Source: Eledone cirrhosa (lineage: Eukaryota). Taken from it: DNA of 64,000 nt. Shown piece after piece: positions 1-60,531 of the stretch. Numbering within the stretch: position 1 is the stretch's first letter; each line of letters starts with the position of its first letter. Where the stretch lies: contig OZ024742.1 of the NCBI GenBank assembly GCA_964016885.1, positions 280,302,001-280,366,000 on the forward strand, in the 5' to 3' direction. The translations under genes were made by a program, and so were the position numbers. Under the pieces are notes generated by a model that was not told where the DNA came from, ran no database searches, and saw nothing but the letters and a program-made list of their open reading frames with translations.

Positions 1-2
1 TA

Positions 3-1070
3 ATTGTTCTCCAAGATAAATTTGAGTCCCTTTATCACGAATTCTTTTTTGATGCGTTGTGGGAGTTCATTGTGGAAATTATCCAGCCAGAATTTGATAG
101 CTTCTATTCCTAGGTTGTGGGGGATGTTGGAGTATAGGTTGACTTCATCGAACGTCACTAGTAGGGTTTGTTCAGAAAGTGGCATATTAGGGAGGGGATT
201 GAGCATATCTAGGTCGTCCCTTATATAGCTTTTGATGTGCTTGAGGAAGGGTTTGAGAAGGGTATCAATGAAGTTGCTAAGACGGTGCGTTTCGCAAGCG
301 GGGCCTGCTATTATAGGTCTTAATTTGAGATCATTGGGTGAGGGGACATTGATGACTATGTCTGTGGCTTCCTTGCATGCCTTACTTATTGATTCGCTTT
401 TATGTACTTTAGGGATACCGTAGAAAAGGCTGGATTTACTTGTGAAGTCTGTGATGAAGCTGAATTCCTTGTTAGTGAGTCCTTCTTTGTATTGGTTGAT
501 TAGAGTTTTTAGGTTTCTCATAATTTTCTGTTGATTGTAGTGTTCAGCCTTTTCGTAGTATGTTTCGTTTTCCAAAGTGGAGAGCGCTAAGTTGATATAG
601 AATTCTGTCTCCATTAGGACTACTGTACTCCCTTTATCAGCCTCTTTAATTGTAATGGTTCTGTCGATTTTTAATCTATTTAATTCTTCCCATTCTTTCT
701 TGTTGAGGTTTGGCTTGTGTTTTTGTCTGTGCAAGTGTTGGTAAGGGAAGTTTGTGATGTGGTCACAGAATTCGTCCAGGATTTTATTTCTACCTTTTGA
801 AGGGGTATATTTGCTTCTATTTCTGGCTAATGATTCATCCTCATTGTACTGGTCGAATAGTTGTTCACTAAGTCGTAACTTTCTACAGAAGTCTGTGATG
901 TCTTCCTTCATTTCATAGTAGTTAGGACGTAGTGGGGTCGGTGTGAATTTAAGACATTTGGAGAGTAAGTTGATAAGGTTGGGTGTTGGTTCTGCACTAG
1001 TAAGATTGATAATTTTTGTTACTATCGGTCTCTCCTCCCTGTCTTGTGTTATTTTGTTTGGCTGTATCTG
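3..1070 (-). CDS. Penelope-like element reverse transcriptase ORF, N-terminal part; runs off the left window edge
   Basis: Manual minus-strand translation gives KIINLT..LLSKCLKFTPTP, ITIKEADKGSTVVLM, FYGIPKVHK, LRPIIAGP, LLVTFDEVNLYSNIPH and FILENN, all typical PLE RT motifs. No stop was seen in the stretches translated; it is absent from the ORF track because the stop lies outside the window. Confidence 0.9.
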
Positions 1071-1203
1071 TTAGCTGTGTCTAAAAAATGGTTGGGGTAG
1101 AGGGATATATATATATATATATATAACGAAGGAAATGTGGTAAGGAACCAGGTGGACCATAACGCACCAAAGTACTCAATACTTGAGGTAGTAGAGTGGG
1201 TAA

Positions 1204-1330
1204 TAGGAACCAGTAAGACCCCGACAGCTGAGCTCAAGCCGTTTCGACGGCTAATTCTGGAGTTCAGAATTCTGAGTCCAGAATTAGCCGTCGAAACGGC
1301 TTGAGCTCAGCTGTCGGGGTCTTACTGGTT

Positions 1331-1334
<4 letters not shown>
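1204..1334. repeat. Near-perfect ~130 bp palindrome at the 5' end of the PLE (inverted pLTR junction)
   Basis: aggaaccagtaagaccccgacagctgagctcaagccgtttcgacggctaattctgga is followed after a short spacer by its exact reverse complement, then (TA)n. Confidence 0.9.
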
Positions 1335-1418
<84 letters not shown>

Positions 1419-2384
1419 TACAGTACATAGTATAATTGAAGTTCATAATATAAAAAAAATACGTAATATATTAAAAAATAAGATAAAAATGAATTATATT
1501 ACGATTTGGAAATATATTCTTACAATTATAAGCAATATAACTTTAAAGCAATATAATTAAAAAAAAATATAATTTTAAAAAATTACAGAATATCTTAAGA
1601 TATAATTTTAAAATAAGAATATGTATAAAAAATTCAGTATAACATTTAAATTGTTTATAGAATATTTAACTCTCAGTATGTTTAACTTAATTTTATAACT
1701 ATAGATTTTTAATAATATATAGATCTCAACTTTTAATGTATAGATCTCAACTTTTAATGTATACATCTCAATAACATGATGGATAATTTAATTGAAAAAC
1801 TAATCTTTTAATCATATTTAAACCCTGCATAAAATTCATTTTCTATTCACGAGTATTTTCCATTCACGCTTAATTACTTATTTACTTTACTCATCCAAAA
1901 TTATTTATTTTTTCACTTCATCTTAAAAGTTATGCTAATACAACCTATCACTTAGGGCTTTCTCTTTCTCTTTCGCTTTCTCTTTTCTCTTTTCTTTTTT
2001 TCTTCTCTTTCTCTCTTTCTCTTTTTCTCGTTTTCTTATTTTCCTCTTAAAGCTGCCTTTTTCTTTTTTTTTCTTTGTTTCTTTTTTTCGTTTTTCTTTT
2101 TTTCTTTCTTTTTTTTCTTCTTTTTTTTCTTCTTTTTTTTTTCTTTTTTTTTTTCTTTTTTCTTTTTTCTTTTTTCTTTTTTCTTTTTTCTTTTTTTTCT
2201 TTTTTCTCTTTCCTTCTCTCCATACCCCAACGGCTTATTATAAATCTACTGTGATTTTAAAATATCCGACACTAATTTGCATAATAGTATAAATAAATGT
2301 ATAACCCCACTATCCGGGAGCTTCCAACAGAAATGGTCGCATTCTTTAAGGGTATGTCAATATTTATTTATAAAACTGATCTAT

Positions 2385-2458
2385 ATTATATGTTATCTGA
2401 TGAAAGCACACCATAATTTAACTTGGTGTCCTTGAAGTATGTATAATGAAATAAATAT
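2385..2458 (+). ncRNA. Type I hammerhead ribozyme-like motif, family A, diverged copy (GAAG instead of GAAA)
   Basis: tatgttat-CTGATGA-AAGcACACCA..TGGTGTcCTT-GAAG-TATGTA-TA-atgaaata. Confidence 0.6.
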
Positions 2459-2509
2459 GGTTTTATAAATATAGTCTCCATATGTTAATATCTCGTATAT
2501 ATATATATG

Positions 2510-2583
<74 letters not shown>

Positions 2584-2706
2584 AAAGTTCTATTTAAAAT
2601 TGTTGGGATACAACAAGTAAATATTTTTATAACTGATATAAAGCACTCGACAAGTATTTGGAGTAGATATACGATATTAATAAATGGAAACTATATTTAT
2701 AAAACC

Positions 2707-2782
2707 ATATTTATTTCATTATACATATTTCAGGGATACCAAATTAAATTATGGTATGCCTTCATCAGAAAAAATACAATAT
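2707..2782 (-). ncRNA. Type I hammerhead ribozyme-like motif, family A
   Basis: Reverse complement reads tatttttt-CTGATGA-AGGcATACCA..TGGTATcCCT-GAAA-TATGTA-TA-atgaaata. Confidence 0.7.
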
Positions 2783-3631
2783 ATAACAGTTTTACAAATA
2801 AGCTTTGACGTACCCTTTTAAAGTGCGACCATTATTTTTGGAAGCCATCTGGATAGTGAATTGTTTATATTATTTTAATAAGTCTTAGTGTTAAGGACAA
2901 TTAGAAAAAGACGGAGAGAAAGAAAAAAGACGGAGAGAGAGAAAAAAGAAAAAGAAAAAACGTGGAGAAATATCGGAGAGAGAGAAATGCATGGAGAAAA
3001 AAGGAAGAGATAAATAAAGACAGGAGGAAAGAAAGAAAAAAGAAAAAAGGAAGGAACAAGAAAAACAGAGGAAAGCAACAGAGAGATATCAAATCAACAG
3101 ACAGATAGAAAGACTCAAGAGAGAGAAATAATATATAGAGAAAGGGGGAGATAATGAAAACTTATTAAGTTGAGTTAACAATTTATATGAAATGAATAAT
3201 AAAAATATAAATATTAATATTCATGAATGGGACATAAATATATAATATGAGAAATTAAACATTGTTTAATAATGATTATATGTTTAGTTTAAAAATTGAG
3301 ATCAATATACTAAAATTTGAGTTTAAGCATCCAAAATGTACACATTGCTAGAGAAACCACTATCTTACGGCAAAGATACACAAATATATATATATAGATA
3401 TATATATATATATACGCACATCCTGAAAATAGAAATTATATCTACTCAAGCCTACAATATAGACATACAAAACAAATGATTTCTCTCTATCACTGCTATA
3501 CATTCCTTGGGTTATAAAAAATTCACAGAATATATACATAAATATATACGATTAACATTCATGCCTTCATATATACGATTACCATTCATGCATTTAACAT
3601 TCTGTTAAAATTATGCAAATCTGCAATCAAA

Positions 3632-3942
3632 ACTACAGAATTTAAATTTCGCTTCAATAATCATAAAAATTATTTCACAGATCCATACAAAAAATCTTCA
3701 ACTTCGCTATCTAGCCTACTATGGGACCTAAACGAGATAATGTTAAATATTCGATGACTTGGAATATTATTTCAGATGCTACTCCTTTTAATTCCTCTTC
3801 AGAAAATTGTGATCTTTGTATTGAAGAAATATTCTTTATATTAAAGTCCAAAATTTCCCTTAATTTAAGGAATAATTTATTCAGTTGCTACAGACATAGA
3901 TTGAACTCAACGTTTAAATATAAATATAAATTTAAAATGTAG
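3632..3942 (+). pseudogene. PLE GIY-YIG endonuclease C-terminal remnant (frameshifted)
   Basis: TTEFKFRFNNHK..SSTSLSSLLWDL, then YSMTWNII..CDLCIEEIFFI..LNLRNNLFSCYRH; resembles the FK.R..NH...W.I....C.LC..E...LN.R tail of PLE ORFs. Confidence 0.75.
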
Positions 3943-4234
3943 TATAATTAATTAATATAATTTAGTTAATATATGAAACCTGTTGATAAATCATTAGATT
4001 CCTTCACCTTTTTCTTTTTAAATTTTCTTCCTAAATATAAACATAGATATAATAAACTACTCTAAAATGTCTATACTTCCAATGTCTTAAATAAAATATA
4101 CGTAAGATAAATTTCTATACTAAATATAAGGATATCTGTAGTCATTGGGTTTTTAAAAATTTTTAAATTTTTAAATTTTTTAAATATTTAAATTTTTAAA
4201 TTTTTTAATTATATTGATATAATATTTATTTAAC

Positions 4235-4685
4235 TTTTATTTTTATTTTATTTTTATTTTTATTTTTATTTTTATTTTTATTTTTATTTTTATTTTTATT
4301 TTTATTTTTATTTTTATTTTTATTTTTATTTTTATTTTTATTTTTATTTTTATATTTATTTTTATTTTTATTTTTATTTTTAATTTTATTTTTATTTTTA
4401 TTTTTAAATTTATTTTTATTTTTATTTTTATTTTTATTTTTATTTTTATTTTTATTTTTATTTTTATTTTTATTTTTATTTTTATTTTTATTTTTATTTT
4501 TATTTTTATTTTTATTTTTATTTGTATTTTTATTTTTATTTTTATTTTTATTTTTATTTTTATTTTTATTTTTTATTTTTTTTTTTTATTTTTTTTTTAT
4601 TTTTTTTTTTATTTTTATTTTTATTTTTATTTTTATTTTTTTTTAATTTTTTTTTTTATTTTTATTTTTATTTTTATTTTTATTT
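4235..4685. repeat. (TTTTTA)n hexanucleotide microsatellite inside the PLE 3' region
   Basis: Direct inspection. Confidence 0.95.
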
Positions 4686-5429
4686 ATTAGGTTTGTTTTG
4701 ATTCTGATAGCTTCTCATAATTTTCATAAGTCTACCCTTTCAATATCTTGATTGAAAGATACGTAGGATAAATTTCTATACTAAATATATATGAAACATA
4801 TTATTTTAACTTAAGATACTCTATAGTGTTTTAAAGATATTTAGTGTTTTGATATTTCTAGAATTCGTTTGTCCTTTAGACTATACTGATATAATTGTAT
4901 TTCCAAAATATAATCCTTTGGTATTTTAAATGTATATTGTTATAATTATATTTCCAAAGTATAATCCTTTAGTAATATATTGATATTTGATTATCTCTAT
5001 ACAAATATGTATGTGTGTATTAACATGCATATAAAAGTGTTATATGTTTTTTTTATGATTGTATATCTGTCTGTATGTGTACATGAGTGATGTGGGTCTA
5101 ACAATTGGTGAAGACGCACGCAAATATTTATTTATACATATGTGTATATATATATATGTATATGTATGTGTGTGGGTGAGAGTTATGTGTGTGCATGCCT
5201 ACCCACACAGTTTTGATTGCAGATATGCATAATTTTAACAGAATGTTAAATGCATGAATGGTAATCGTATATATGAAGGCATGAATGTTAATCGTATATA
5301 TTTATGTATATATACTGTGAATTTTTTATAACACAAGGAATGTATAGCATTGATTAAGAGAAATCATTTGTGTTTTGTATGTCTATACTGTAGGCTTGAG
5401 TAGATATAATTTCTATTTTCAGGATGTGC

Positions 5430-5462
<33 letters not shown>

Positions 5463-6089
5463 TATGTATATATATTTGTGTATCTTTGCCGTAAGATAGT
5501 GGTTTCTCTAGCAATGTGTACATTTTGGATGCTTAAACTCAAATTTTAGTATATTGATCTCAATTTTTAAACTAAACATATAATCATTATTAAACAATGT
5601 TTAATTTCTCATATTATATATTTATGTCCCATTCATGAATATTAATATTTATATTTTTATTATTCATTTCATATAAATTGTTAACTCAACTTAATATGAC
5701 ATGACGTAAAGTTTCCATTATCTCCCCCTCTCTCTATATATTATTTCTCTCTCTTGAGTCTTTCTATCTGTCTGTTGATTTGATATCTCTCTGTTGCTTT
5801 CCGCTGTTTATCTTGTTCCTTCCTTTTTTCTTTTTTCTTTCTTTCCCCCTGTCTTTATTTATCTCTTCCTTTTTTCTCCATGCATTTCTCTCTCTCCGAT
5901 ATTTCTCCACGTGTTTTCTTTTTCTTTTTTCTCTCTCTCCGTCTTTTTTCTTTCTCTCCTTCTTTTCCTAATTGTCCTTAACAGTAAGACTTATTAAAAT
6001 AATATAAACAATTCACTATCCAGATGGCTTCCAAAAATAATGGTCGCACTTTAAAAGGGTACGTCAAAGCTTATGTGTAAAACTGTTAT

Positions 6090-6165
6090 ATATTGTATTT
6101 TGTCTGATGAAGGCATACCATAATTTAATTTGGTATCCCTGAAATATGTATAATGAAATAAATAT
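6090..6165 (+). ncRNA. Type I hammerhead ribozyme-like motif, family A, best-preserved copy
   Basis: Stem I tattttgt(6096-6103)/atgaaata(6153-6160); CTGATGA 6104-6110; stem II AGGcATACCA/TGGTATcCCT; GAAA 6141-6144; short stem III TATGTA; UH = TA 6151-6152. Confidence 0.75.
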
Positions 6166-6196
6166 GGTTTTATAAATATAGTTTACATTTATTAAT

Positions 6197-6255
<59 letters not shown>

Positions 6256-12264: not shown

Positions 12265-12451
12265 AGATCGGAACTATCGGTAGAGCGTCAGACACCATGC
12301 TTTGAAGCAAAGAGTTATGGCCATTTATGTTCTGAGTTCAAATCCCGCTGAGGTTAACTTTGCCTTTCATCCTTACGGAGTCGGTAAAATAAAGCACCAG
12401 TAATGCACTGGGATAATTGCTAGATTTGTGGTAAAAGTATAAACAATTATT
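12265..12451 (+). mobile_element. tRNA-derived SINE, family 1
   Basis: Head with B-box-like gagttcaaatcc, central ttgcctttcatccttacggagtcggtaaaataaagcaccag and tail aaacaattatt; about ten copies in the window. Confidence 0.85.
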
Positions 12452-12509
12452 TACATATCGCTAGATATTAGACTTTCTTGAAAAAACGTGTATATGTGCG
12501 AGCATCTTT

Positions 12510-14081: not shown

Positions 14082-14305
14082 CTCTATCAGTCGTGTGTCA
14101 CTTCGCGGAGAAGTTTCCGTTAATTTATGTAAGGAAAAAACGTGAGTTTTTAGTTCAATTTTATATCATTGTGTAACTTGACCACCCGTCTGGACCTTCA
14201 GGTGGTGGGTCAACTCATTTTCGCCCCTTCAGGGGCGGAATATCCATTTAAAAAATTTTTCTCCATCGAATCTTGGAAAAAATATTGTAAAATTTTGATT
14301 ACGTT

Positions 14306-16222
14306 ATGAACGCTGCGTCCAACGATAATGGTGGTGGAGAGGCGGTAAGACTACAAAGCTCGCAGTCAACAACGTCTTCTTCACTAGATACTATAGAGAT
14401 GGAAAGACAAAATGAAAATAAAAAAACGAATTCACATCCAAACAACACAAATGACACCAAACAGCTCAATGACAACAAAAATAACAGCAAAACCAATAAT
14501 GATGATAAAAGCAACAATGATAACAACAACAAAGAAAAAAATAAAGACAACGCCAATAACACCAGCATCAAAGACAACAACAACACCAAGGAAAATACGG
14601 ATGATACCAACATCGGTGACAACAAGAATAACAACAAGAATAACAACAATAATGACAACACCACCAATACGGATTCCACAAAGAAACCAAAAATCTCCTT
14701 TGCGGAGAAAGTTCAAAAGAAAGAACAATTGATATATCTCGACATAACAAATGCTGAACACCTTTTAAAGGACGCTAAGAGATATGTCACCTTCGAAAAA
14801 AATGGTGCTTTCAACATCAATTCTCCGGTAGAAATTCGCAAGGAAACTGCTCTCAAAACGATAGTTTTTAGGACAGTTTCCAATTCTACCCGAAAACCAG
14901 TCCAATTGTCACAGAAAGATATTGAACTGGTTTTCAAAGATTCAATGAATGATATTGCATTCATTCAAAGAAGCAAACTTTTTGGGAGTATTTCGGTACT
15001 GATGAAGGATCAATTGACGGCCCAAAATTACTCTGTGTCGCCAATTGTATCCAACCTGTACACCTTTTTCCCTACATACATGGGAAAAAGGACACAAAAG
15101 ATCAGAATCACAAGTGTCACACCAAAGGTGAACATATGGTGGATACTGTGCGGCTTCATCAATTTTGATGAAGACAGAATACTGTCAGTAGGCAAGTCCC
15201 CCAGAGATGTATTCAATGGGACTAGCATTGAAGTTCTGGTGCAAATGAGCCCAGAGCGAATAGCTATGATCCCACAGCGTGTACTCCTGGACGGACTTAC
15301 CTACATAAACCTTTCGGTTGAGGGTAGGCGGCCTTCATGTTACCATTGCTTTAGCAGGGGTCACCTGAGGGCTTCCTGTCCTAAACTAATGAACCAAAAA
15401 AAGGCTCTTCTGCCAACACCCATCAAAACAACACAACCACCAACACCACCACTACAACAACAACACCAACACACAAAAATAACCACAACAAACACAGTCC
15501 CACCCAACCTCACTCCACCTAAAACCACTGCAAAATCACATACAGACACAACATCTCCCCAAGACATACCCCTCCCCAATCACACAGACGATACAACAGA
15601 TGAGGCTATCTCGCCATCACCCAGTGAAGACGAGGGAGAACCCCATCGCTCGAAAAGAAAGAAAAGACATCACAAAAGCAAAAAACCAGCAAACACTACC
15701 ACAAACATACAACCACCAACACAAACAACAAAAATATCACAAACAAAACCCCCACCTCCTGAAAACAAAATACCTACAACAAAACGAAAGCACACACAAG
15801 AACTACAGACAAAAACAAACACAACACAAGAAAATTACACTTACACTTACATAAACACTGAAAACAAAACACTAATGGAGACCATTACGAACGACCCTTC
15901 GGTTTTCACCGAAGGGAAAACTTTCGCCCACTCTATAAAAAATAGCAAAAAAATGAACCTAAAACTGATTAGTGTCCCTATACAAACTTATAGGTCCCTA
16001 AAAGAAACATTTGAGAAGGATGTGGGGAATTCCTGCGTGAAACCACTCAACCGCGTCCTTCTCAAATACCTCTCCACCCCAGACACCACCATTCCACCAG
16101 ACCCCACCCCACCAAACATCTGCGTCCCCACCCCGCCGGAAACCACCACCCATCCAGACAACCTCTCCAACACTCCCATGGAAATCGTGCGGCCTGGTCC
16201 CCAGGAGGCGAAGGGTGAATGA
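14306..16222 (+). CDS. Tx1-like ORF1 (gag-like nucleic-acid-binding protein, 638 aa)
   Basis: Intact ORF with CX2CX4HX4C knuckle CYHCFSRGHLRASC, an N-rich N-terminus and a T/P-rich linker; it directly precedes ORF2. Confidence 0.88.
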   Translation: MNAASNDNGGGEAVRLQSSQSTTSSSLDTIEMERQNENKKTNSHPNNTNDTKQLNDNKNNSKTNNDDKSNNDNNNKEKNKDNANNTSIKDNNNTKENTDDTNIGDNKNNNKNNNNNDNTTNTDSTKKPKISFAEKVQKKEQLIYLDITNAEHLLKDAKRYVTFEKNGAFNINSPVEIRKETALKTIVFRTVSNSTRKPVQLSQKDIELVFKDSMNDIAFIQRSKLFGSISVLMKDQLTAQNYSVSPIVSNLYTFFPTYMGKRTQKIRITSVTPKVNIWWILCGFINFDEDRILSVGKSPRDVFNGTSIEVLVQMSPERIAMIPQRVLLDGLTYINLSVEGRRPSCYHCFSRGHLRASCPKLMNQKKALLPTPIKTTQPPTPPLQQQHQHTKITTTNTVPPNLTPPKTTAKSHTDTTSPQDIPLPNHTDDTTDEAISPSPSEDEGEPHRSKRKKRHHKSKKPANTTTNIQPPTQTTKISQTKPPPPENKIPTTKRKHTQELQTKTNTTQENYTYTYINTENKTLMETITNDPSVFTEGKTFAHSIKNSKKMNLKLISVPIQTYRSLKETFEKDVGNSCVKPLNRVLLKYLSTPDTTIPPDPTPPNICVPTPPETTTHPDNLSNTPMEIVRPGPQEAKGE

Positions 16223-16255
16223 TCTCTTTTCCTCTTTTAACTTTTCAGCACCAAC

Positions 16256-19200
16256 ATGGCCAATATAAGAGTTGGATGTGTGAACGTACGCGGCCTGGGG
16301 ATGCCCTGGAAACAGGGCAAACTCTTAAACGACCTCAGGTCACACAGTTTGGATGTGGTAGCCATTTGCGAGTCCAGGATCCACGGCGAGCGACAGCTGG
16401 CCCCCATCTTCGATGACTTTGAAATCTACGCATCTCTCTGTCAACCGGGGGGTGGGGGCGGAGTTGCCGTTTTGCTGCGGAAACACCTGGGCCTCGTAAC
16501 ACAGACGGTACATCTGGACCCGGAGGGTCGACTGGTGGTCCTAGACGTTGACGGTAGTGAAGGTGGAGCCTTCAGGCTGGTGGCCGCATATGCCCCATCC
16601 GGGACACCGCGGCCAGACTTCTTCAAACGTCTAGAGACTTTTCTGGGAACGTCCCGCTCCTTGCTTTTAGTGGGGGACTGGAATGGAATCCTAGATGCAC
16701 GTTGGGACTATGTGGGAGCATGTCCCGACAAAGGGGGGTGTAACAGCCTCAAACAGTTAATCGACCGATTTGACCTGGCCGATAGATATCGACTAGATTT
16801 TCCGACTGCGCCAATGTGGACGTGGAGTAATCGTAGCGGAACATCTAGATCGTACCTAGATAGGGTTCTAGTTAGAAATAAGGATAGGGACATGTTAAGC
16901 TGTCCACAAATGTTCATGGTTGCCTATTCAGATCACAAACTAGTGACCTGCATGGCCAACCTTGATAGAACCCATAGACAAGGACCCGGCTACTGGAAGC
17001 TGAACTTGTCGTTACCGACAAGCAAAGCCTACAGTAGACGGATTAGCACTTTAGTTAAACAGCACTTGACAGGGGCCATTGTCAACAACAGATGGTGGTA
17101 CTCTCTCAAGAGGGCAGTTAGATTAGACTCGATAGTTTTTAGTAAAGAATTAGCGTTAGATAGAAATAGAACCGAGAAGGAACTGGTAGATAAAGTAGAA
17201 GAGGCAATTAGAAGTGGCAACGTAGCCAGCGTGCTAGCAACGAGAACGGCCTTGGACCAGTTCTTCGACGCAAAGCACGAGGGCTGCGTTGTCAGAAGCA
17301 AAATACGTGCTCTGGGAAACGAGGGAGCCAAAGCTGTTAGCTGGGCCCGGGTGACGGAGGCAAAAAGTGGCAACAAGTCCACGATTCGGTCTTTGAAGGA
17401 CCAAAACGGACGCGTGATACGTGAGCCGAAGCAGATGTGTGCGGCTTTTCAGCGGCACTTTGCTCGGCTGTTCGGGGGGAGCGGCGCGCCGGGAGAGGCT
17501 ATGGATTTCGGTCCATACCTCGACGGCCTACCGCGACTCTCGGACAGTGAGGCGAAGTTCTGCGAAAAGCCGATTTCAGCCACTGAGATAGGGGACGCGC
17601 TGAGCCAATGCGGCAAACGCAAATCTCCAGGTCTCGACGGTCTACCCTAAGAATTTTACGTAGCAATGCCGGACTTATTCTCCGGTCTCCTGGAAGCGGT
17701 CTACTGCAACTGGCAACAGAACGGGAGAATTCCCAGTTCTGTAACCGGGGGCGTGGTCACACTAATCAGGAAGGACGAGAATAAGGGGGATGACATAGGC
17801 AACTTCCGGCCCATAACTCTGCTAAACACAGAGTTACAGATTTTGGCCAAGGTGTTGGCAAAGAGGCTGGCGCTTGTCGTCGAGAACCTGGTGGGAGAAG
17901 CGCAGACATGCGCGATCCCGACCAGGTCCATACACGACAACCTCCACCTCATGCGATACATCATAGAGAGGGTAGGGTGTAAACCCGGCTTCGGTGGGGC
18001 CCTGATCAACTTGGATCAGTCTAAGGCTTTCGATAGGGTTGACCATCGTTACCTGGATGCGGTGCTCGAGGCGGCAGGCTTCGGACCCGTGTTCAGGGGC
18101 TGGATTGCTGCAATGCACAACAGCAACATCTGCTCAAGGGTCAAGGTGAACGGTTACCTCTCGGAGCCGTTCCATATTACGTGATCCATTCGACAGGGAT
18201 GCCCTCTCTCCTCCCTTCTGTACGTACTGACTCTCGAGCCACTACTGCGGAAGCTGGAGCTATTGCAGGGCATCCCTCTGGAACCGGGACTGCGGAAAGC
18301 GGCGTCGGCCTACGCCGACGACGTGACAGTAATGGTGTCGAGCGCCTCGCAAATCGAGGAAGTCGGCACCTTACTAAAGGAATACGAAAGTCTCACAGGA
18401 GCGAAGCTGAACCGGGACAAGTCCATCGGTTTGCAACTCGGATCGTGGAGAGGCAGACCGATGCCTTCCGATGGCGTCGTCGGACGCTGGACGGAAGGAC
18501 CGGTAAAGCTGCTCGGGGTCTGGTTTGGTCCGGACCTCCAGGTGGAGAAGAACTGGAACGAAGTGACGGCCAAGGTGTTTGCACTCACCCAGAAGTGGGC
18601 CGAGTGCAAACTATCCTTGAAAGGTCGAGCGGAGGTGGCGAACACTTTTATAGCGTCCGCCATCTACTACCGCTTGACCGTCGTGCCTTGTCCAGCCAAA
18701 ACGCTCGCCAAAATGGAGCGCGCCCTCTTCCGATTCCTTTGGAAGAGGCGGGCTCCTTTGGTAAGAAGATCCATCTGCTGCCAACACCCTTCTAACGGAG
18801 GGCTGGGGATGCCGTGGTTGACGATGCGCAAACACGCGCTCAGGCTGCGGCATCTCTACGTATTCCTCACCGGACAACCGGTGTGGGCCCCGTTTGTGAG
18901 GCGAGCCTTCCCACGACTCGTCTCGCTGACCGAGCTGCAGTCCTGGGTCAAGCAGAGACCGAGGAAAATGGGCGACTGGCACATCGAATGTGCTCAGGCG
19001 CTCACAGCCCTCTGGCAGGCGGACCCAGCGATCAGTGGAGACTCCACTTCGTCATTCTATAGAGGGTTGGTCCGCAGCGAGTGCGACGACGCGCTCGGTG
19101 AAACTCTAGGCGTGGAGGAAGATGAACTGGCCAGTCTGTTCGGTAGGAACTTCCGCCCGGGACCGATGGACAACTTCCAAAAGTCCCTGGCCTGGCAGTG

Positions 19201-19693
19201 CTACCGAGGAGCTCTACCAGTTCGAGACAAGCTCTACAGACATGGGCGCCCGGGCAGGGACCCTGCAAAAAAGATCTGTCCGAGGTGCGTGCGAGACGAA
19301 GAAACCGTCGCGCACGCATTCATACACTGCCCGGGCGTCACTGACCTGTGGGGCTATGTAGAACGACTATTGTCGCGGGTGGGACCAATCCAGTTGACCA
19401 CCGAGTCCATTGTCATGATCAAACCGCCACCCTCCTTCAAAAACGAAGGAGAGGCGGTTTTCCTTTGTGTGATAGCTATGGCGAAAGAGGTTGTATGGTG
19501 GACAAGGTTGAAAGGGCTGAGGTCAGACACCTTTCTCTCCGGCCAACAACTGATTCTTTTTTTCAAATACCACTTTGGAAGAAGAATCAGGATGGAGAGA
19601 GAGGTGCTGTACCCCAGCAAGTTTTATGAAAGGTGGGTGAAAGTGGCGAGAATGGCCCGAGTGAATGGGCCTTCTCTCTATATCAGCCTGTAG
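16256..19693 (+). pseudogene. Tx1-like ORF2 (APE endonuclease + RT + C-terminal Cys/His), one frame with two nonsense codons
   Basis: NVRGL, GDWN, YLDRVL, SDH (APE); SPGLDGLP, NFRPITLLN, DQSKAFDRV, RQGCPLS, YADD (RT); CPRC..ETVAHAFIHC. ORFs 16256, 17666 and 18263 share one frame, with stops TAA 17648-17650 and TGA 18182-18184. Confidence 0.93.
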
Positions 19694-37800: not shown

Positions 37801-38434
37801 ATTGAGAGGGTGTTTGCATCTGCTAGCGACTACATGCTCACTTAATCTTATTAGCGAAATCCTGGTACACATTACCACGTCATCCTCGATCACGAAAGAT
37901 GGTTGTTAAACAACAAATACATATTTTTATTCATTATTTGCGTTTACTACAATAATGATTAAAATTTACTCATTTGTGTATGAGATGTTATCAAAATTAC
38001 AGGGTATTAGTCTGTTATTGATGAAACATATTCTCTAAAATGGGTTTCAAGTTCTAAGAAGCTTGAAACTCTTTCGTGAGACGTTCTTAGTTTCGGCATA
38101 CAGGAATTACCCCCAAAAGGTTCTAGCTTGGTAAAATCTAAAAAGAAATCACTTTGTGTGGATGAGTAGCAGTAACTCAAACATGCAAGTATCCACTTTT
38201 ATTTACCCTTAATTTAATCCTTAAGCGTAATCAGTGAGGCAGTGTGAAACAAACCTGTAATTATACAGGCAATGCATTATATTGTGAAGGAGGGTGGCTG
38301 AGTTGAAACCGTAGATAGTATTAGTAATTGGAAAGATTTGTCTGATTGGCTTCCTTGCACTTTTAGTTCAACATGATATGCTAGGTTGTTATTTAATAGA
38401 CGCGTATAAATATCATAACCAATATGTTAATCTA

Positions 38435-38608
38435 TAATTGTTTCTACTTTTGGCACAATGCCAGAAATTATCCCAGTGCATTACTGGTACTTTATTTTAT
38501 CGACCTCGTAAGGATGAAAGGCAAAGTTAATCTCGGCGTGATTTGAACTCAGACCGTAAATGTCCGTAACGATGCTGCAAAGCATGTTCGATGCTCTCCC
38601 GATATTGC
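38435..38608 (-). mobile_element. SINE family 1
   Basis: Reverse complement of the family consensus. Confidence 0.85.
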
Positions 38609-38769
38609 TACATAAGTATCGTTACAGGTATTGTAAGCTGTCAATATTCCACTACTACATAGGTACGTGTGAGAACACCAAACACATGCCTGTATGATGT
38701 TTATTACCTATAACTTATATGAAGTTTGCAGTTGAATCATTTGATATGAGGCATATATGAGTTTATTAT

Positions 38770-38981
38770 GGGCTGGTTGTATCGGTAGAGCGTCGGACAC
38801 CATGCTTTGCGGAATAGAGTTACGGCATTTTACGTTCTGAGTTCAAATCCCACCAAGGGTTAGCTTTGCCTTTCATTCTAACGGGGTTCATAAATAAAAC
38901 ACCAGTAATGCACTGGGGCCGATTTAATACATTTTCCTCTCTCCTACAAATAACTGGCCTTGTGCCTAAAGTAGAAACAAG
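38770..38981 (+). mobile_element. SINE family 1, longer-tail variant
   Basis: Consensus match with an extra ~25 nt before ctggccttgtgcc. Confidence 0.85.
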
Positions 38982-41039: not shown

Positions 41040-41217
41040 TGCTTTAACGGTGTCCACTCAGCTGTTATCGTTCAATTCAGCTCTCCTGTTTGAGAATATT
41101 TTCTGCCCTTTTCCCTTGTTGTAGAATGGTTCTTCAAAGTGGTCAATGACATCGTATGTTCTTCCTTAGCAAAATGTATAAGCAAAAAAGGAAAATGGGA
41201 TATCATTTATTATCGTA

Positions 41218-41603
41218 GGGGTGGTGGACTGGCAGTATCGGTAGAGGGTCGGACGCCATACCTTGCAGCAAAGAGTTACGACCCCTTATGGTCTGAGTTC
41301 AAATCCCGCCGAGGTTAACTTTGCCTTTCATCCTTACGGGGTCGATAAAATTAAGTACCAGTAATACACTGGAATAATTGCTGGCCTTGTGCCACAAGTA
41401 TAAACAAAGGGCGGTGGATTGGCAGTATCCGTAGAGGGTCGGACACCATACTTTGACGCATAGAGTTACGGCCCTTGCCATTCTAAGTTCAAATCCCGCC
41501 GAGGTTAACTTTGCCTTTCATCCTTACAGGGTCGATAAAATAAAGTACCAGTAATGCACTGTGATAATTGATGGCCTTGTGCCAAAAGTAGAAGCAATTA
41601 TTT
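41218..41603 (+). mobile_element. Head-to-tail dimer of SINE family 1
   Basis: Two complete copies at about 41218-41406 and 41409-41603. Confidence 0.9.
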
Positions 41604-42082
41604 ATTATCGTACAATAAGAAATGTGTTTCTTGTATTAATGTATAGCTGGTACTTCACAGTTGATAATATAAGTTATAGTCCTGTAAGGTTAGAGCTGTG
41701 GTTAGTGTAATTCTATCACTATATATCAGAATTTCTATCTGTTTGTCTATCTGTCTATCTATATATTTATATATATATATATATATATTATATATAAATA
41801 TATATGTATGTATGTATGTATGCATATATTTACATATATATATATATACGGGAGTGTATGTACGTATATAGATATATATATATAAATGAAACGTATAGAA
41901 AGTATTATATATATATATATATTTATTAAAATAACAGATTAAAGATTAAGCAAAGAATTGCTGCTTTCACCCTTAACTGGATGTTCTGAAACTCTATTTT
42001 TGCTCTACGGTTCTTATATATTTGATATATATTTATCCTTATCGAGCCCTCTTTCGATCTTAGTCTTCAAATTGATTATTAT

Positions 42083-43892: not shown

Positions 43893-44258
43893 TATAGAGT
43901 AAAGCATGTCCAGAGAATTATTTGATAATATATATACCTCATCTCTACTTAATTTATTAATTCTCCGTTGAGCCACATCGTGAAAAGTTGCAAAAACACA
44001 TATATACCTGTGATTTTGTTTCATTGGTGTATGTGTAAATATTTATATTATATATATATATTTATATATATATATATATATATATAATAAAGAATTTATA
44101 TCTAGTAACATATATATACATACAAATGCATATCGATGCTAGCAAATATATAGGTTTTGTCTTAATAACATTGTGGGTCAATGCATGGGGTTGCAGAACA
44201 ATAATATAAGAGACGTAAGATAAGAAAATTATAAAATTAACTTACTTACTAAAATATC

Positions 44259-44340
44259 ACTTCCAACTAATTAGTTTCTGGAATGGAGTAGATACATCTT
44301 CCGAAGAAGGTGTTGAGAAACATCCCGTCATCAGGAAAGT
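44259..44340 (-). ncRNA. Type I hammerhead-like motif, family C
   Basis: Exact reverse complement of 45023-45104. Confidence 0.75.
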
Positions 44341-45022
44341 CTATTCTCATATAAGTTTCCAGGCAAAGCGAGGACTCTGGAAGCTTATTAAAAAATAAAT
44401 CAGTGAATAGGAAATAGCAAAGCGTGGACTTATTCCTAGCCATTGAGAAAATCACTGCCTCTGTGTCTGTGGCAAATTCAAAAAGAATCGAACACGTGAC
44501 ATCGAGGTCAATCGGTGGAAAGTGGGTTGTTAATAAGACAGCGGCCAGCCTACTACCGTAGCAGCAGTCATGGCCAGTATTGCTCGACAAATATTTTGGA
44601 GATAATAATAAAGAATTTATATCTAGTAACATATATATACATACAAATGCATATCGATGCTAGCAAATATATAGGTTTTGTCTTAATAACATTGTGGTTC
44701 AATGCAGAAACTAATTAGTTGGAAGTGATATTTTAGTAAGTAAGTTAATTTTATAATTTTCTTATCTTACGTCTCTTATATTATTGTTCTGCAACCCCAT
44801 GCATTGAACCCAATGCATTGAACCCCATGCATTGAACCACTTTCCACCGATTGACCTCGATGTCACGTGTTCGATTCTTTTTGAATTTGCCACAGACACA
44901 GAGGCAGTGATTTTCTCAATGGCTAGGAAGTAAGTCCACGCTTTGCTATTTCCTATTCACTGATTTATTTTTTAATAAGCTTCCAGAGTCCTCGCTTTGC
45001 CTGGAAACTTATATGAGAATAG

Positions 45023-45104
45023 ACTTTCCTGATGACGGGATGTTTCTCAACACCTTCTTCGGAAGATGTATCTACTCCATTCCAGAAACTAATTAGTTGG
45101 AAGT
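45023..45104 (+). ncRNA. Type I hammerhead-like motif, family C
   Basis: ACTTTC-CTGATGA-cGGGATG..CTTC-TTCG-GAAG..CATTCCa-GAAA-CTAATTAG-TT-GGAAGT. Confidence 0.78.
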
Positions 45105-45152
45105 GATATTTTAGTAAGTAAGTTAATTTTATAATTTTCTTATCTTACGTCT

Positions 45153-45205
<53 letters not shown>

Positions 45206-47623: not shown

Positions 47624-47993
47624 TATAAAGAAACGATACTGTCGAAGAGGACATATACACAGTCGGTCATTTTCCCACTCACTCAATAATTTAGTTTAAT
47701 CAACGTATCAAGACACCAACCCAAGTTTTAGACGTTAAATAGTGAGCAAAAGGATTTCGTATCGGTAGAAAACTTGATTTTCCGGCTCCGTATCAATGAA
47801 TTAGTTTCTGCAACTGCCACTGCTAGCGGAGTCTAAAAGGACGTACCATACACAGAAGCTAGGTAAAGCTATGAAGCATTACGTAAATGGCTATAACTTG
47901 CTTTATCAATGGGAAATTAGTGCCACTGGAACATTTCAGCTATCAATCCACTGCTCCGATGTATTTCCCCCATTAGTTTAACTCATGCAGAAA

Positions 47994-48182
47994 AATAACT
48001 TTTTCTACCTTTGGCACAAGGCCAGAAAATACCCAGTGCATAACTGGTACTTTATTTTATCGACCCCGTAAGGATGAAACGCAAAGTTAACCTCGGCGGG
48101 ATTTGAACTCAGAATGGCAAGGGCCGTAACTCTATGAGTCAAAGCATGGTTTCCGACTCTCTACCGATACTGCCAATCACCA
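47994..48182 (-). mobile_element. SINE family 1
   Basis: Reverse complement of consensus. Confidence 0.88.
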
Positions 48183-48534
48183 TATTTACCTGTTAGTAAA
48201 CGGAATTTGTGTGTGCGTACGTGCGTTGTTGTATATGTGTGTGGGTGCGTGCGTGCGTGTGTCTGTGTGTGTGCATGAATATGTATGGATATGCGTATGT
48301 GCATGGGTATATTGAATATCTGTGCGTGCACATGCATATGTGTGTATTATATGCCAATGTGCGAGAGTATATGTATGTGAGCATGCAAATGCACGTAAGC
48401 TTACATGTGTACATGCATGCACGTACATGCGTATATGTATACATGTTTTTATACACTATACCCTCGCTTACGCGTGCTTCTATATTGACCAACACATACT
48501 TATGTACGAGCCTTGTTCCTAAATCAGAAATCAT

Positions 48535-48727
48535 TGGTGGATTGGCAGTATCGGTAGAGGATCAGACGCCATGTTTTCCAGCATTGAGTTAATGTCCCTT
48601 GCCATTCTGAGTTCAAATCGCGCCGGGGTTAACTTTGCCTTTCATCCTTATGGGGTCCATATAATAAAGCACCAGTAATACACTGGGATAATTGCTGGCC
48701 TTGTGCCAAAAGTAGAAAAAATTATTA
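48535..48727 (+). mobile_element. SINE family 1
   Basis: Consensus match. Confidence 0.88.
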
Positions 48728-49023
48728 TTACATTTACTAACAATGAATACATTCAGTTTTGTTTATTTAATCATTTAACTTTTATTCACATCATTTTCCA
48801 TATATGGAAGCTGGAGATCTTTCAGCTATTCTAAAAAGCTTTTAATCTCCTGATTTTTTCATTGTAAAATGTGTTTTTTTTCATAGCAATAAATTGTTCT
48901 TCTCGCTCCACATATTGACGGAATTATTTACAGTTTGATTTTTCTCAGGTTCAGAAGATCCCGTATATGGTTATGGTGAAAGCATGTATTCTTTGCTTAA
49001 ACTCTACAAGTAGTGAACTAATA

Positions 49024-49066
<43 letters not shown>

Positions 49067-49626
49067 TAACACTGGAAGATAATATCCGTAGTGGTAGAGC
49101 ACTCAGTCGATGGGACGAGTTAGGTAGAAGTGGTTACACAACAGTTAGTTCACCATACCGAGAACAATTCTTTCACCTTAGCACATCCTCAGCTGGTAAT
49201 GGACATCGTTATACGGAACAGGAAGGACAACCGTACGAACGCGCATGCGCAGAAACGATCCCTTCACAGAGGCAATACTGAATTGCATACGAGAGGTGTA
49301 CGGGAGATAACTGCGAAAGTCCGAAAAATGTCTAGTTTATAAGAAAATTAGGATTGTGTTGTAATTCAATCCGGAGCTTTGTAGTTATGTAACAGGTGTT
49401 TCCAGACGTGTGGGCAACGTGTGTCGAATTCATTTCTCGTGTTTAGGCAATCACTATTGCGTAATCTCTTTACAATAGTTATTCGTTCATCAATACATAG
49501 TCCACACGACGGCTTGCCCCATGCGTATGGCTTGGACTTAGTGATGGATTTCCATTGAATGGAGTAGTCTATACTTGAGTCCTTGAGGGACCATACGAGG
49601 CTAGCGAGTTTCGTGGATTCTTCCTT

Positions 49627-50026
<400 letters not shown>

Positions 50027-51762: not shown

Positions 51763-51941
51763 ATAATTGTTTCTACTCTTGGCACAAGGCCAGCAATAAC
51801 CAGTACATTACGGGTACTTTATTTTATCGACCCCATAAGGATGAAAGGCAAAGTTAACCTCGGCGGGATATGAACTCAGAATGACAAGGGCCGTAACTCT
51901 ATGCGTCAAAGCATGGCGTCCAACCCCCTGCCGATACTGCC
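51763..51941 (-). mobile_element. SINE family 1
   Basis: Reverse complement of consensus. Confidence 0.88.
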
Positions 51942-57257: not shown

Positions 57258-57443
57258 TATTGGCAGTATCGGTAGAGGGTCAGACGCCATGCTTTGACGC
57301 ATAGAGTTAAGGCCCTTGTCATTCTGATTTCAAATGCCGCCGAGGTTAATTTTGCCTTTCATCCTTACGGGGTCGATAAAATAAAGTACCAGTAACGCAC
57401 TGGGGTAATTGCTGGCCTAGTGCCAAACATAGAAACAATTATT
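57258..57443 (+). mobile_element. SINE family 1
   Basis: Consensus match. Confidence 0.88.
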
Positions 57444-58306
57444 ATTGTTATTATTACTATTGTCATTATTATGTTTTTGTTTTTTTTCGTGCAATGACCA
57501 TACTCGATAACGAGGGGCCAGCCATCAGGTTTAAATGTATGTATGTTAGATCGCTCCCGAGTGATACTGGTAACATATAACCCAGTCTCATGGTCGGGTC
57601 GTTGGAGAAGAGGGAGATATTTGGACGCCCTGCGGGATGAATTATAAGACCCGGCAAAGGGCGGAGGCTCAGCAAAGTTTTTTTTTTTCTTTTTTTTTCC
57701 CAACACATGGGTAGTGTTTTCGATGCTCAGAGAGTGGGCTTAGTCGAGTGCAATGCCTTCCCCAACTTAAAAACCCTTCAAAGCACAGGCATTGCTTGTT
57801 CAGGATCTGTTACAGGTTTGTGTGGCTGGAGGTAGCCTAAAAGTGCACCAAACTCTATAATCTGCAATACTCTTAGCCGAGATTGCAGCCATCATGTATG
57901 TATAGAGAGTTGACTGAATCAGTACGTTTTATTACCATGTATATTTGCTAATTCTTTTCAGAATTCTGATGTATAATTAAACAAAGCCAACGACAAACAC
58001 GACATCAACAACAACAATATAAATGATATTATATAGAGAGGCACTAATATATGTATATATAACAAAAATTAAATCAAACACTTTATATTCCTCTCACACA
58101 TATATAGGCACAGACAGACACACACACATGTGTTTGTGAGTCTGTCTCTCTCTGTGTGTGTGTGTGTGTGTGTACGAACATGTGTGTGCTTGTATGTTTG
58201 TATGCATTCATAATACATGATTGATAGGCATATAAAATGTTAGATACATAAGAGTAAATATGTGCATAAATACATATGTAGTTAGGAAGACAAGTGAAAA
58301 AAAAAC

Positions 58307-59542: not shown

Positions 59543-60248
59543 AAGAAGAAGAAGAAGAAGAAGAAGAAGAAGAAGAAGAAGAAGAAGAAGAAACACGAAT
59601 GAATATCAAATTGAAGGCTAATATGAAGAAATGGTATCAAATAACAAAACAAAATCATTATCAAACTGATGGGAATTATGATAATCATCACTATTGTATT
59701 TATAGCCATTATAATTGATGGCGCATCTACAACACCATCATATGTATAGTTAAACTTCTATCCTTTCCAAATCGATAAATAAAGCACAAATCCAACAATG
59801 TGTGTTGACTCCTACTTTATATATCCTTCCCACATTCTTTCCGTTGTGTTCAGATACGGAAAGGAATAATTTGCAGCAAGTTTACACGCCCAAACGTTAC
59901 CCTATATAAATGTGGTGACACTACACTCTATCAGGGATCATATATATATATATATAATTATTTATATATACACACACGAAGATATGTAAGGTTAACATTT
60001 GTTTGTGTGAATCAATGTGCAGTCAAAGTAAACAAGGAATATTACTTATCAAAGTATTTTTCTCGACATGGTCTTTGCAGGAGGTACGGTAACAGTCCAA
60101 TTTGAGAGTTCAATGTACAGTGTCAAAGTGGAAGATCACGGAGAAAATATTAATTTAAAGCTATAGTATAGGAAAAACAAAGAAAAATACAATGTCGCTT
60201 GTTTCTCCTAGTTCTATAACTTTATACACACACATACATATATATATA

Positions 60249-60440
60249 TAATTGTTTCTACTTTTGGCACAAGGCCAGCAATAATCCCAGTGTATTACTG
60301 GTACTTTATTTTAACGACCCCATAAGGATGAAAGGTAAAGTTAACCTCGGCAGGATTTGAACTCAGACCATAAAGGGCCGTAACTCTTTGCTGCAAAGCA
60401 TGGCGTCCGACCCTCCACCGATACTGCCAATCCTCCGCCC
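60249..60440 (-). mobile_element. SINE family 1
   Basis: Reverse complement of consensus. Confidence 0.88.
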
Positions 60441-60531
60441 TTATGTATATAATGTATAGTAATATAATGTATAGTAACATATATATATATATGGAGGAAA
60501 TTGTAGTTTACTTGAAGCATTGCGTAGTGAG

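What the first reader, a model, noticed from the sequence alone, without database searches (positions are those of the whole stretch)
2290..6204. Three family A hammerheads with compensatory substitutions visible within the window
Seen: stem II is AGG-c-ATACCA/TGGTAT-c-CCT at 6111-6140 and 2707-2782(-), but AAG-c-ACACCA/TGGTGT-c-CTT in the diverged paralog at 2404-2433. That is two double substitutions preserving pairing, plus a retained C-C mismatch. Stem I is AU/GU-only and the predicted cleavage triplet is AUA. Inference: the RNA structure was under selection in two subfamilies that now sit tail to tail across a (TA)n tract.
Basis: partly seen in the sequence, partly recalled or inferred. 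Interest (0 to 1): 0.7.

Follow-up and report, generated by a model that had tools for sequence, protein, structure and literature searches.

The report
Hammerhead ends of Hydra-type Penelope elements
These three motifs are end-pieces of a very abundant jumping gene (a Hydra-type Penelope-like element) whose RNA is predicted to fold into a self-cutting hammerhead that likely works in pairs; the fold is conserved across subfamilies, but this is a known kind of arrangement and cutting is untested.

Summary
Real, and a known kind. The three cores are at 2397(+), 2768(-) and 6104(+), with stem II as described. They are terminal-repeat (pLTR) hammerheads of a Hydra-clade Penelope-like retroelement that inserts in (TA)n, with over 27,000 exact-pattern matches genome-wide. 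Selection on the fold is supported: across 22 subfamily representatives, 7 of 9 stem II pairs show double changes, and G·U intermediates exist. With the core left free in the search, only N7 and a palindrome-keeping helix III position vary recurrently. Corrections: 2768 and 6104 are the two arms of one insertion, so the window gives one comparison, not three. The 2397 copy has a private A15.1→G core mutation (19 versus 6,485 matches) and is probably dead. Tail-to-tail placement is just two insertions sharing one (TA)n. Insertions end 48 or 139 nt past the predicted cut, one of each per two-armed insertion (28 of 28), so the copied RNA must be uncut or re-ligated there. Cleavage is untested, and the AUA triplet and all-AU helix III predict weak, dimer- or protein-assisted activity. 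The scan had already noted Hydra-clade hammerheads and the twin end-hairpins on other DNA.

The parts
6096..6160 (+). Type I hammerhead, subfamily A, intact core (core 6104-6110, stem II 6111-6140, GAAA 6141-6144, helix III 6144-6151, predicted cut after 6152); stem I can extend over about 6076-6174
3635..6200 (+). Body of a 5'-truncated subfamily-A Hydra-clade PLE: end of the GIY-YIG endonuclease, 3' region with (TTTTAT)n, pLTR with hammerhead; short end 48 nt after the cut, then (TA)n
3635..3935 (+). Broken C-terminal endonuclease fragment with CxxC..E..LN..CxH motifs (CDLC...CYRHR here, CCRHR in most copies)
2581..3634 (-). Inverted 5'-truncated arm of the same insertion (94.9% identical to 5209-6208), long end 139 nt after the cut
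2712..2776 (-). Hammerhead of the inverted arm (core starts 2768, cut after 2720); private U-U mismatch in stem I
2581..2671 (-). 91-nt tail = 5' leader of the next unit in full-length tandem copies; holds hairpin 1 (ACTC..GAGT GCTT, 2664-2641)
2496..2580 (.). (TA)n target tract shared by two independent insertions
2389..2453 (+). Hammerhead, subfamily B (core 2397-2403, stem II 2404-2433, cut after 2445); A15.1→G at 2437, probably inactive
1691..2495 (+). Short-ended inverted arm of a subfamily-B insertion; its tailed partner arm lies about 3.7 kb before the window (L031:6320, minus strand)
1417..1703 (-). Continuation of the subfamily-B body on the minus strand; 13-nt overlap with the inverted arm at 1691-1703
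6201..6253 (.). (TA)n flank of the subfamily-A insertion

Best explanation
The three motifs are type I hammerhead folds in the terminal repeats of a high-copy Hydra-clade Penelope-like retroelement, and in full-length source elements they likely act as slow, dimer- or protein-assisted self-cleaving RNAs, while the window's copies are truncated insertions of which at least one (2397) is probably dead. Shown: a full unit is about 4.15 kb, pLTR-ORF-pLTR, with a hammerhead in each pLTR, a leader of about 190 nt, then one RT plus C-terminal endonuclease ORF. Insertions sit in (TA)n, have two outward-facing arms and end 48 or 139 nt past the predicted cut, one of each per insertion. Inferred: a transcript holding both pLTRs lets the two hammerheads pair through the palindromic helix III (AUAUGUAU or AUAUAUAU) and cut after A17, trimming the RNA to unit length. 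The endonuclease nicks both strands of a (TA)n target, each 3'-OH primes at a UAUAU stretch just before one of two small hairpins in the leader, and the two cDNAs join head to head. The cDNA runs through the cut site, so the template must be uncut there (most likely, as shown for PAc in vitro) or re-ligated.
For: Carrier: the endonuclease fragment at 3635-3935 continues upstream in other copies into an RT-EN ORF. Units of 4,142 and 4,148 nt lie between same-strand hammerheads. The ORF has RWR, DKT, CxCx5C, CxxC and CxH motifs and no CCHH, as defined for Hydra PLEs (PMC8557442 section 11; alignment in its supplement). Abundance: 15,272 + 175 + 11,872 exact-pattern matches, reversed-pattern controls 0. 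Stem II: 7 of 9 pairs with double changes, 2 of 500 shuffles as high, slid controls 0-2. Core left free: in the first 100 of 7,351 hits, N7 is U 72, G 18, A 5, C 1, while the other six positions show 4 singletons (counted by eye). In the first 100 of 12,450 hits with GAAA-helix III-H17 free, 62 read AUAUAUAU, 37 AUAUGUAU and 1 has a core change (by eye). Contigs of two public runs show common variants only in loop II, stem II pair 2, the helix III palindrome and a stem I G·U/A-U position. The dimer fold is -22.6 kcal/mol versus -11.0 for two monomers. Ends: 168 of 176 classed copies are short or long, 161 of those running into (TA)n. One short plus one long end in 27 of 30 outward pairs and 28 of 28 in a position-ordered list (by eye). 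Hairpin 1 is present in 74 of 84 long or read-through copies; hairpin 2 in 4 read-through copies with A-U→G-C.
Against: No cleavage or expression data. AUA is described as up to orders of magnitude slower than GUC or GUA (review PMC3138052, passage). The helix III self-duplex is only -2.2 to -3.2 kcal/mol. The monomer hammerhead fold lies 4.7 kcal/mol above the minimum, and the dimer fold 2.6 above the co-fold minimum. RNAalifold recovers stem II but not stems I and III. Stem I shows only one-sided AU/GU changes and helix III pairs never vary, so neither has double-change support. One stem II pair is broken in 7 of 22 representatives, and the closing pair is A·C in 2 and U·U in 1. The shuffle control ignores relatedness: by eye there are about 7 independent double changes, 4 of them in the C/E clade behind one long branch. 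Rfam hammerhead models give no hit. Every intact end spans the cut site, so cleavage cannot be required there at reverse transcription. Long or read-through ends are 1,796 of 4,224 matches, not exactly half. Clade assignment rests on motifs, with no tree against reference PLEs.
Confidence: 0.85

Rival explanations
1. The fold is kept as a protein-binding or RNA-pairing element and rarely or never cleaves in vivo.
For: Slow AUA triplet, all-AU/GU helices I and III, templates must span the site. For PAc, hammerhead mutants did not affect insertion in vitro and no RNA-seq reads ended at the site (PMC11167929). Naiads thrive without canonical hammerheads (PMC8557442).
Against: The conservation pattern is exactly the catalytic consensus, with N7 free and all other core positions fixed, which a mere binding site would not need.
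Confidence: 0.2
2. Efficient cleavage at both pLTRs followed by ligation gives a 4.15-kb circular RNA that is the real template, so reverse transcription runs past one unit and rebuilds the 5' pLTR.
For: Proposed for PLEs by Cervera and de la Pena (PMC4209133). The 5' pLTR extends different distances upstream of the cut in L142 (about 100 nt) and L143 (about 520 nt). The two arms overlap on the unit.
Against: A circle junction has the same sequence as the genomic tandem, so DNA cannot tell it from uncut RNA. PAc used unprocessed RNA in vitro.
Confidence: 0.3
3. The double changes are a by-product of hairpin template-switch repair or chance in an AT-rich repeat, with no selection on RNA.
For: Very AT-rich sequence, folding z-scores only -2.0 to -2.4, no Rfam hit.
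Against: Palindrome repair would erase the C-C mismatch, which is kept in 20 of 22. Amplified G·U intermediates are strand-specific RNA pairs. The core pattern matches the catalytic consensus.
Confidence: 0.03
4. The 1-kb inverted repeats mark a DNA transposon or MITE, or the hammerheads belong to a non-coding retrozyme.
For: Long inverted arms; many short two-armed copies lack any ORF.
Against: Arm lengths vary from copy to copy, ends are asymmetric (short versus long), the interior is an RT-EN ORF end, and there is no small tandem unit.
Confidence: 0.02

Closest known systems
Hydra clade of C-terminal EN+ Penelope-like elements, including Hydra-1_Obim (Craig et al. 2021, PMC8557442; passages, section 11, supplement searches and part 2 of 59 read)
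   Same: Single RT-EN ORF with DKT, CxCx5C, CxxC and CxH and no CCHH; (TA)n target; canonical 3' hammerhead; inverted 5'-truncated copy; tail at one end only.
   Different: A distinct family: five of its motifs were not found in the supplement, and the listed Hydra-1_Obim hammerhead differs. The unit is 4.15 kb versus generally under 3 kb, and the tail 91 nt versus 30-40 bp. All 26 Hydra rows of File S2 begin helix III with AC and end it with GU, whereas this family has AU..AU and an AUA triplet. Stem II is 9 bp with a C-C mismatch. RWR replaces RWK.
Minimal, dimer-type hammerheads of metazoan PLEs (Cervera and de la Pena 2014, PMC4209133; parts 1-2 of 4 read)
   Same: Type I, in pLTRs, thousands of copies in families with covariation, long helix II, small palindromic helix III, pairs on opposite strands 100-700 bp apart, predicted low activity.
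   Different: No extra nucleotide after A9 and no G10.1-C11.1 in the favoured register (A-U here; the shifted register is about 5 kcal/mol worse for subfamilies A and B). Helix I is longer (8 or more pairs).
PAc, Poseidon element of Anolis (Frangieh et al. 2024, PMC11167929; parts 1-2 of 4 read)
   Same: Hammerhead near the pLTR-ORF junction, two internal start sites that define the tail, both target strands cut and extended, AT-rich target.
   Different: In PAc the hammerhead overlaps the ORF start and the start sites are reported as not homologous to the target. Here the ORF starts about 190 nt after the cut and both ends fall on 5-6 nt of UA repeat matching the (TA)n target.
Animal non-LTR retrozymes (bioRxiv 10.64898/2026.07.22.740005; part 1 of 5 read)
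   Same: Type I hammerhead related to PLE pLTRs.
   Different: Those are small non-coding tandem units; these are ends of a coding 4-kb element.

Membership tests
Type I hammerhead ribozyme | Core C3 U4 G5 A6 N7 G8 A9, G12 A13 A14, A15.1-U16.1, H17 (as listed in PMC3088659) in the 6104 and 2768 copies | tested here: met
Type I hammerhead ribozyme | The same core in the 2397 copy | tested here: not met
   G at 15.1; 19 versus 6,485 genome matches; its partner arm has A
Type I hammerhead ribozyme | Stem II supported by covariation | tested here: met
   7 of 9 pairs, 2 of 500 shuffles; not phylogeny-corrected
Type I hammerhead ribozyme | Stems I and III supported by covariation | tested here: inconclusive
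   98.9% and 100% of cells paired, but only one-sided or no changes
Type I hammerhead ribozyme | Match to an Rfam hammerhead model | tested here: not met
Type I hammerhead ribozyme | Self-cleavage after H17 | not testable with these tools
   needs an in vitro assay
Type I hammerhead ribozyme | Loop I-loop II tertiary contact | not tested
   loop II varies in 11 of 12 columns; no contact was modelled
Minimal PLE hammerheads (Cervera 2014) | Palindromic helix III allowing a dimer | tested here: met
   only AUAUGUAU or AUAUAUAU in 100 of 100 rows; dimer fold favoured
Minimal PLE hammerheads (Cervera 2014) | Extra nucleotide after A9 and G10.1-C11.1 | tested here: not met
   A10.1-U11.1 register favoured in subfamilies A and B
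Minimal PLE hammerheads (Cervera 2014) | Located in both pLTRs of a PLE | tested here: met
   L142, L143
Hydra-clade PLE | Single ORF, RT with C-terminal GIY-YIG-type endonuclease | tested here: met
   680-aa open frame in L142 with YRDD-type RT motif (YRDD in most copies) and VVY..YVG motif, read by eye; Pfam gave no significant hit
Hydra-clade PLE | DKT, RWK-like, CxCx5C linker, CxxC and CxH, no CCHH | tested here: met
   KSDKTN, RWR, CNCRNKSNC, CDLC, CRH
Hydra-clade PLE | Insertion into (TA)n | tested here: met
   161 of 168 short or long ends
Hydra-clade PLE | Generally under 3 kb | tested here: not met
   unit 4,142-4,148 nt; a tendency in the paper, not a strict criterion
Hydra-clade PLE | RT phylogeny within Hydra | not tested
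Non-LTR retrozyme | Small non-coding tandem units each with a hammerhead | tested here: not met

The most novel reading that the evidence does not exclude
The hammerhead dimer is the clasp that holds two template RNAs (or two units of one multimer) together in a dimeric RT-endonuclease complex. One RNA is primed at the first leader hairpin and the other at the second, on opposite nicked strands of (TA)n, which yields the strict rule of one short and one long end and the overlapping head-to-head arms. The ribozyme would then serve first as an RNA dimerisation signal, like a retroviral dimer-initiation site, and cut only late.
Probability: 0.12. Interest if true: 0.7.

Novelty: new member of a known kind. 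Interest (0 to 1): 0.3.

Why it matters
What PLE hammerheads do is an open question in the papers read. This family gives an unusually clean natural mutagenesis: over 27,000 matches in many subfamilies, where only N7, the loops and pairing-compatible positions drift. It is good evidence that the catalytic core is selected even with a weak AUA site and an all-AU helix III, and even though the copied RNA must span the site intact. The one-short-one-long end rule is quantified here and constrains models of PLE insertion. The arrangement itself is published, so the gain is a test case, not a new system.

Tried and rejected
(1) I first thought the 2397 copy was the inverted arm of the Neptune-type ORF at 1-1070. 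Rejected: that element is a separate family nested in a (TA)n of the subfamily-B insertion, and its ORF has no significant similarity to the Hydra-type ORF (best E 0.9). (2) An apparent strand bias of long versus short ends in my loci (23 versus 4) was a sampling effect: genome-wide 911 forward, 885 reverse. (3) A shifted stem II register with an extra A and G10.1-N11.1 is about 5 kcal/mol worse for subfamilies A and B; the H1 row of that script is not properly registered and is not used. (4) Rfam: only microsatellite-driven miRNA-type noise. (5) Pfam on five PLE protein fragments and the 680-aa ORF: nothing significant. The protein search gave 21 relatives at 33-39% identity, nearly all unnamed. 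(6) Sequencing runs: no RNA holder listed; contigs of 2 of the 4 listed runs, of unknown kind and one study, were laid and say nothing on expression. (7) Arm-junction overlaps: 21 of 32 show 1-12 nt overlap, but BLAST ends are imprecise, so this is not used as evidence. (8) Earlier-findings look-up by sequence returned nothing. (9) R-scape was not available. Supplements of PMC4209133 and PMC11167929 were not read, bioRxiv supplements are closed, and Repbase or Dfam could not be searched, so the family may already be catalogued there.
Full report
Observation. The three motifs are in the sequence as described: cores at 2397(+), 2768(-) and 6104(+), a 9-pair stem II with a C-C mismatch, GAAA, an 8-nt helix III strand ATATGTAT, and A17 at 6152. 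The 6104 and 2768 copies share stem II; the 2397 copy differs by G-C→A-U and U-A→C-G. Three things qualify the reading. First, 2664-3634 and 5209-6208 are inverted arms of one insertion, 94.9% identical over 1,000 columns, so the window holds one informative comparison. Second, the 2397 copy has G at A15.1, a position in the consensus core of PMC3088659 (passages). That variant has 19 scattered matches against 6,485 for A, and its partner arm has A, so it most likely arose after insertion. Third, Rfam finds no hammerhead here.

What carries them. The genome (G000, 3.0 Gb, rich in microsatellites) holds 15,272, 175 and 11,872 matches to three non-overlapping exact patterns of this motif, with reversed controls at 0. 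Between the arms, 3635-3935 encodes a broken endonuclease C-terminus. In other copies it continues upstream into an RT-endonuclease frame, open for 680 aa in L142. L142 and L143 show the whole unit: hammerhead, about 190-nt leader, ORF, 3' region, hammerhead, at spacings of 4,142 and 4,148 nt. The protein has RWR, DKT, CxCx5C, CxxC and CxH and lacks CCHH. These are the marks that Craig et al. give for the Hydra clade, with (TA)n insertion and canonical hammerheads (PMC8557442 section 11; supplement). The assignment is by motif; I built no tree with references, and Pfam gave nothing significant.

Local anatomy. The subfamily-A insertion is 2581-6200: a plus-strand body (3635-6200) with a short end, and an inverted arm (3634-2581) with a 91-nt tail. 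The tail is the leader of the next unit in full-length tandems. The 2397 copy is the short-ended inverted arm (1691-2495) of a subfamily-B insertion whose tailed arm lies about 3.7 kb before the window. That insertion is interrupted by an unrelated Neptune-type element. The two insertions meet at (TA)n 2496-2580. Converging neighbours also occur in 6 adjacent pairs among my loci, so tail-to-tail placement is target sharing. The B copy differs from a typical copy at 5 of 196 positions and the A arms at 2 of 188 and 1 of 191, which weakly suggests B is older.

Selection on the fold. From 207 de-duplicated hammerheads in the fetched loci I chose 22 real copies to represent stem II types: 14 recurrent in my loci, 8 single there but belonging to groups seen in search listings or having close variants. 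Stem II has 93.8% of cells paired and 7 of 9 pairs with double changes; 2 of 500 shuffles reach this, and slid registers give 0-2. That control ignores relatedness. On a tree built from flanks I count by eye about 7 independent double changes, 4 of them in the C/E clade. C-C is kept in 20 of 22. Against: one pair is broken in 7 of 22, the closing pair is mismatched in 3, stem I shows only AU/GU one-sided changes, and RNAalifold does not recover stems I and III.

Because my patterns fixed the core, I tested it with the core free. Among the first 100 of 7,351 hits, N7 was U 72, G 18, A 5, C 1, and the six other positions gave 4 single changes. Among the first 100 of 12,450 hits with GAAA to H17 free, 62 had AUAUAUAU, 37 AUAUGUAU and 1 a G12 change. 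Both counts are by eye. The only amplified variation is at the one free core position and at the helix III position that keeps the palindrome. Contigs of two public runs of unknown kind show the same set of common variants.

How it likely works. The monomer fold is weak (-5.5 kcal/mol against a minimum of -10.2). A double hammerhead is -22.6 against -11.0 for two monomers and a co-fold minimum of -25.2. This matches the dimer-type PLE hammerheads of Cervera and de la Pena, which had low activity in vitro (PMC4209133, parts 1-2 of 4). AUA is described as a slow triplet (review PMC3138052, passage), and none of the 26 published Hydra rows has A at 16.2. A full transcript has two hammerheads 4.15 kb apart that could pair and trim it (inferred). 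In the window, the 6104 arm would instead fold back on its inverted arm (-447 kcal/mol for the terminal 300 nt), and the only other plus-strand copy is the damaged one, so activity in place is unlikely.

Ends. Of 176 classed copies (of 207; the rest were other subfamilies or lacked flank), 89 end short, 79 long, 5 read through and 3 are other; 161 of the 168 short or long ends run into (TA)n. Outward-facing pairs have one short and one long end in 27 of 30, and in 28 of 28 adjacent pairs within 7 kb in a position-ordered list (by eye). Each end overlaps a 5-6 nt UA run, 2-3 nt before a small hairpin RCUC..GAGY-GCUU. Hairpin 1 is in 74 of 84 long or read-through copies; hairpin 2, with an A-U→G-C change, is in 4 read-through copies. 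I took the hairpin lead from earlier scan notes and checked it only in this family. Frangieh et al. showed two internal start sites, extension of both strands, protein-dependent hammerhead cleavage and use of unprocessed RNA for PAc (PMC11167929, parts 1-2 of 4). Craig et al. describe a 30-40 bp tail often at one end only. The ends here lie past the cut site, so the template is uncut or re-ligated; DNA cannot decide which.

Novelty. Five literature searches and five motif look-ups in the Craig supplement did not show this family, but Repbase and Dfam were not searchable. Hammerheads in pLTRs, Hydra elements in a cephalopod, inverted arms, (TA)n targets and one-sided tails are all published. 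New in detail are the family, its AUA and all-AU helix III variant, the 91-nt tail, the 4.15-kb unit and the strength of the natural covariation. Verdict: real, new member of a known kind, interest 0.3.

Noticed in passing
window 1-1070 (-), continuing to about 1,240 bases before the window (L031): Neptune-type PLE ORF with RT and GIY-YIG, broken by frameshifts, nested in a (TA)n of the subfamily-B insertion; its 3' region matches L004, L061 and L117.
   Followed up: partly
window 1105-1335: Repeat with a 133-nt near-perfect palindrome (1203-1335) between (TA)n tracts, also in L041, L060, L088, L089, L091 and others; contains GAAAC and GUC-like words, not a canonical hammerhead by my scan.
   Followed up: no
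window 44204-45159: A second two-armed element with 99.7% identical arms and another hammerhead-like core (44334 -, 45029 +) reading GAAG at the GAAA position in both arms.
   Followed up: no
window 49366-50026: Another Hydra-type endonuclease C-terminus (CGLC..LN..CPH) followed by a 298-nt palindrome.
   Followed up: no
window 14291-19693 (+): Near-complete two-ORF LINE with zinc-knuckle ORF1 and APE-RT ORF2 interrupted by two stops.
   Followed up: no
window 12266-12458, 38430-38917, 41216-41605, 47991-48730, 51763-51941, 57259-57446, 60244-60451: About ten dispersed copies of a roughly 190-nt SINE-like repeat, 80-90% identical.
   Followed up: no
L123-L141, endonuclease end: 12 of the 19 closest subfamily-A copies share a stop codon at the same endonuclease codon, so an endonuclease-truncated source may have been amplified in trans.
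   Followed up: no
L149, L107 and related subfamilies: Large subfamilies carry A·C at the stem II closing pair or an internal mismatch, offset by extra pairs in loop II; the C-run next to the C-C mismatch may allow a second register.
   Followed up: partly
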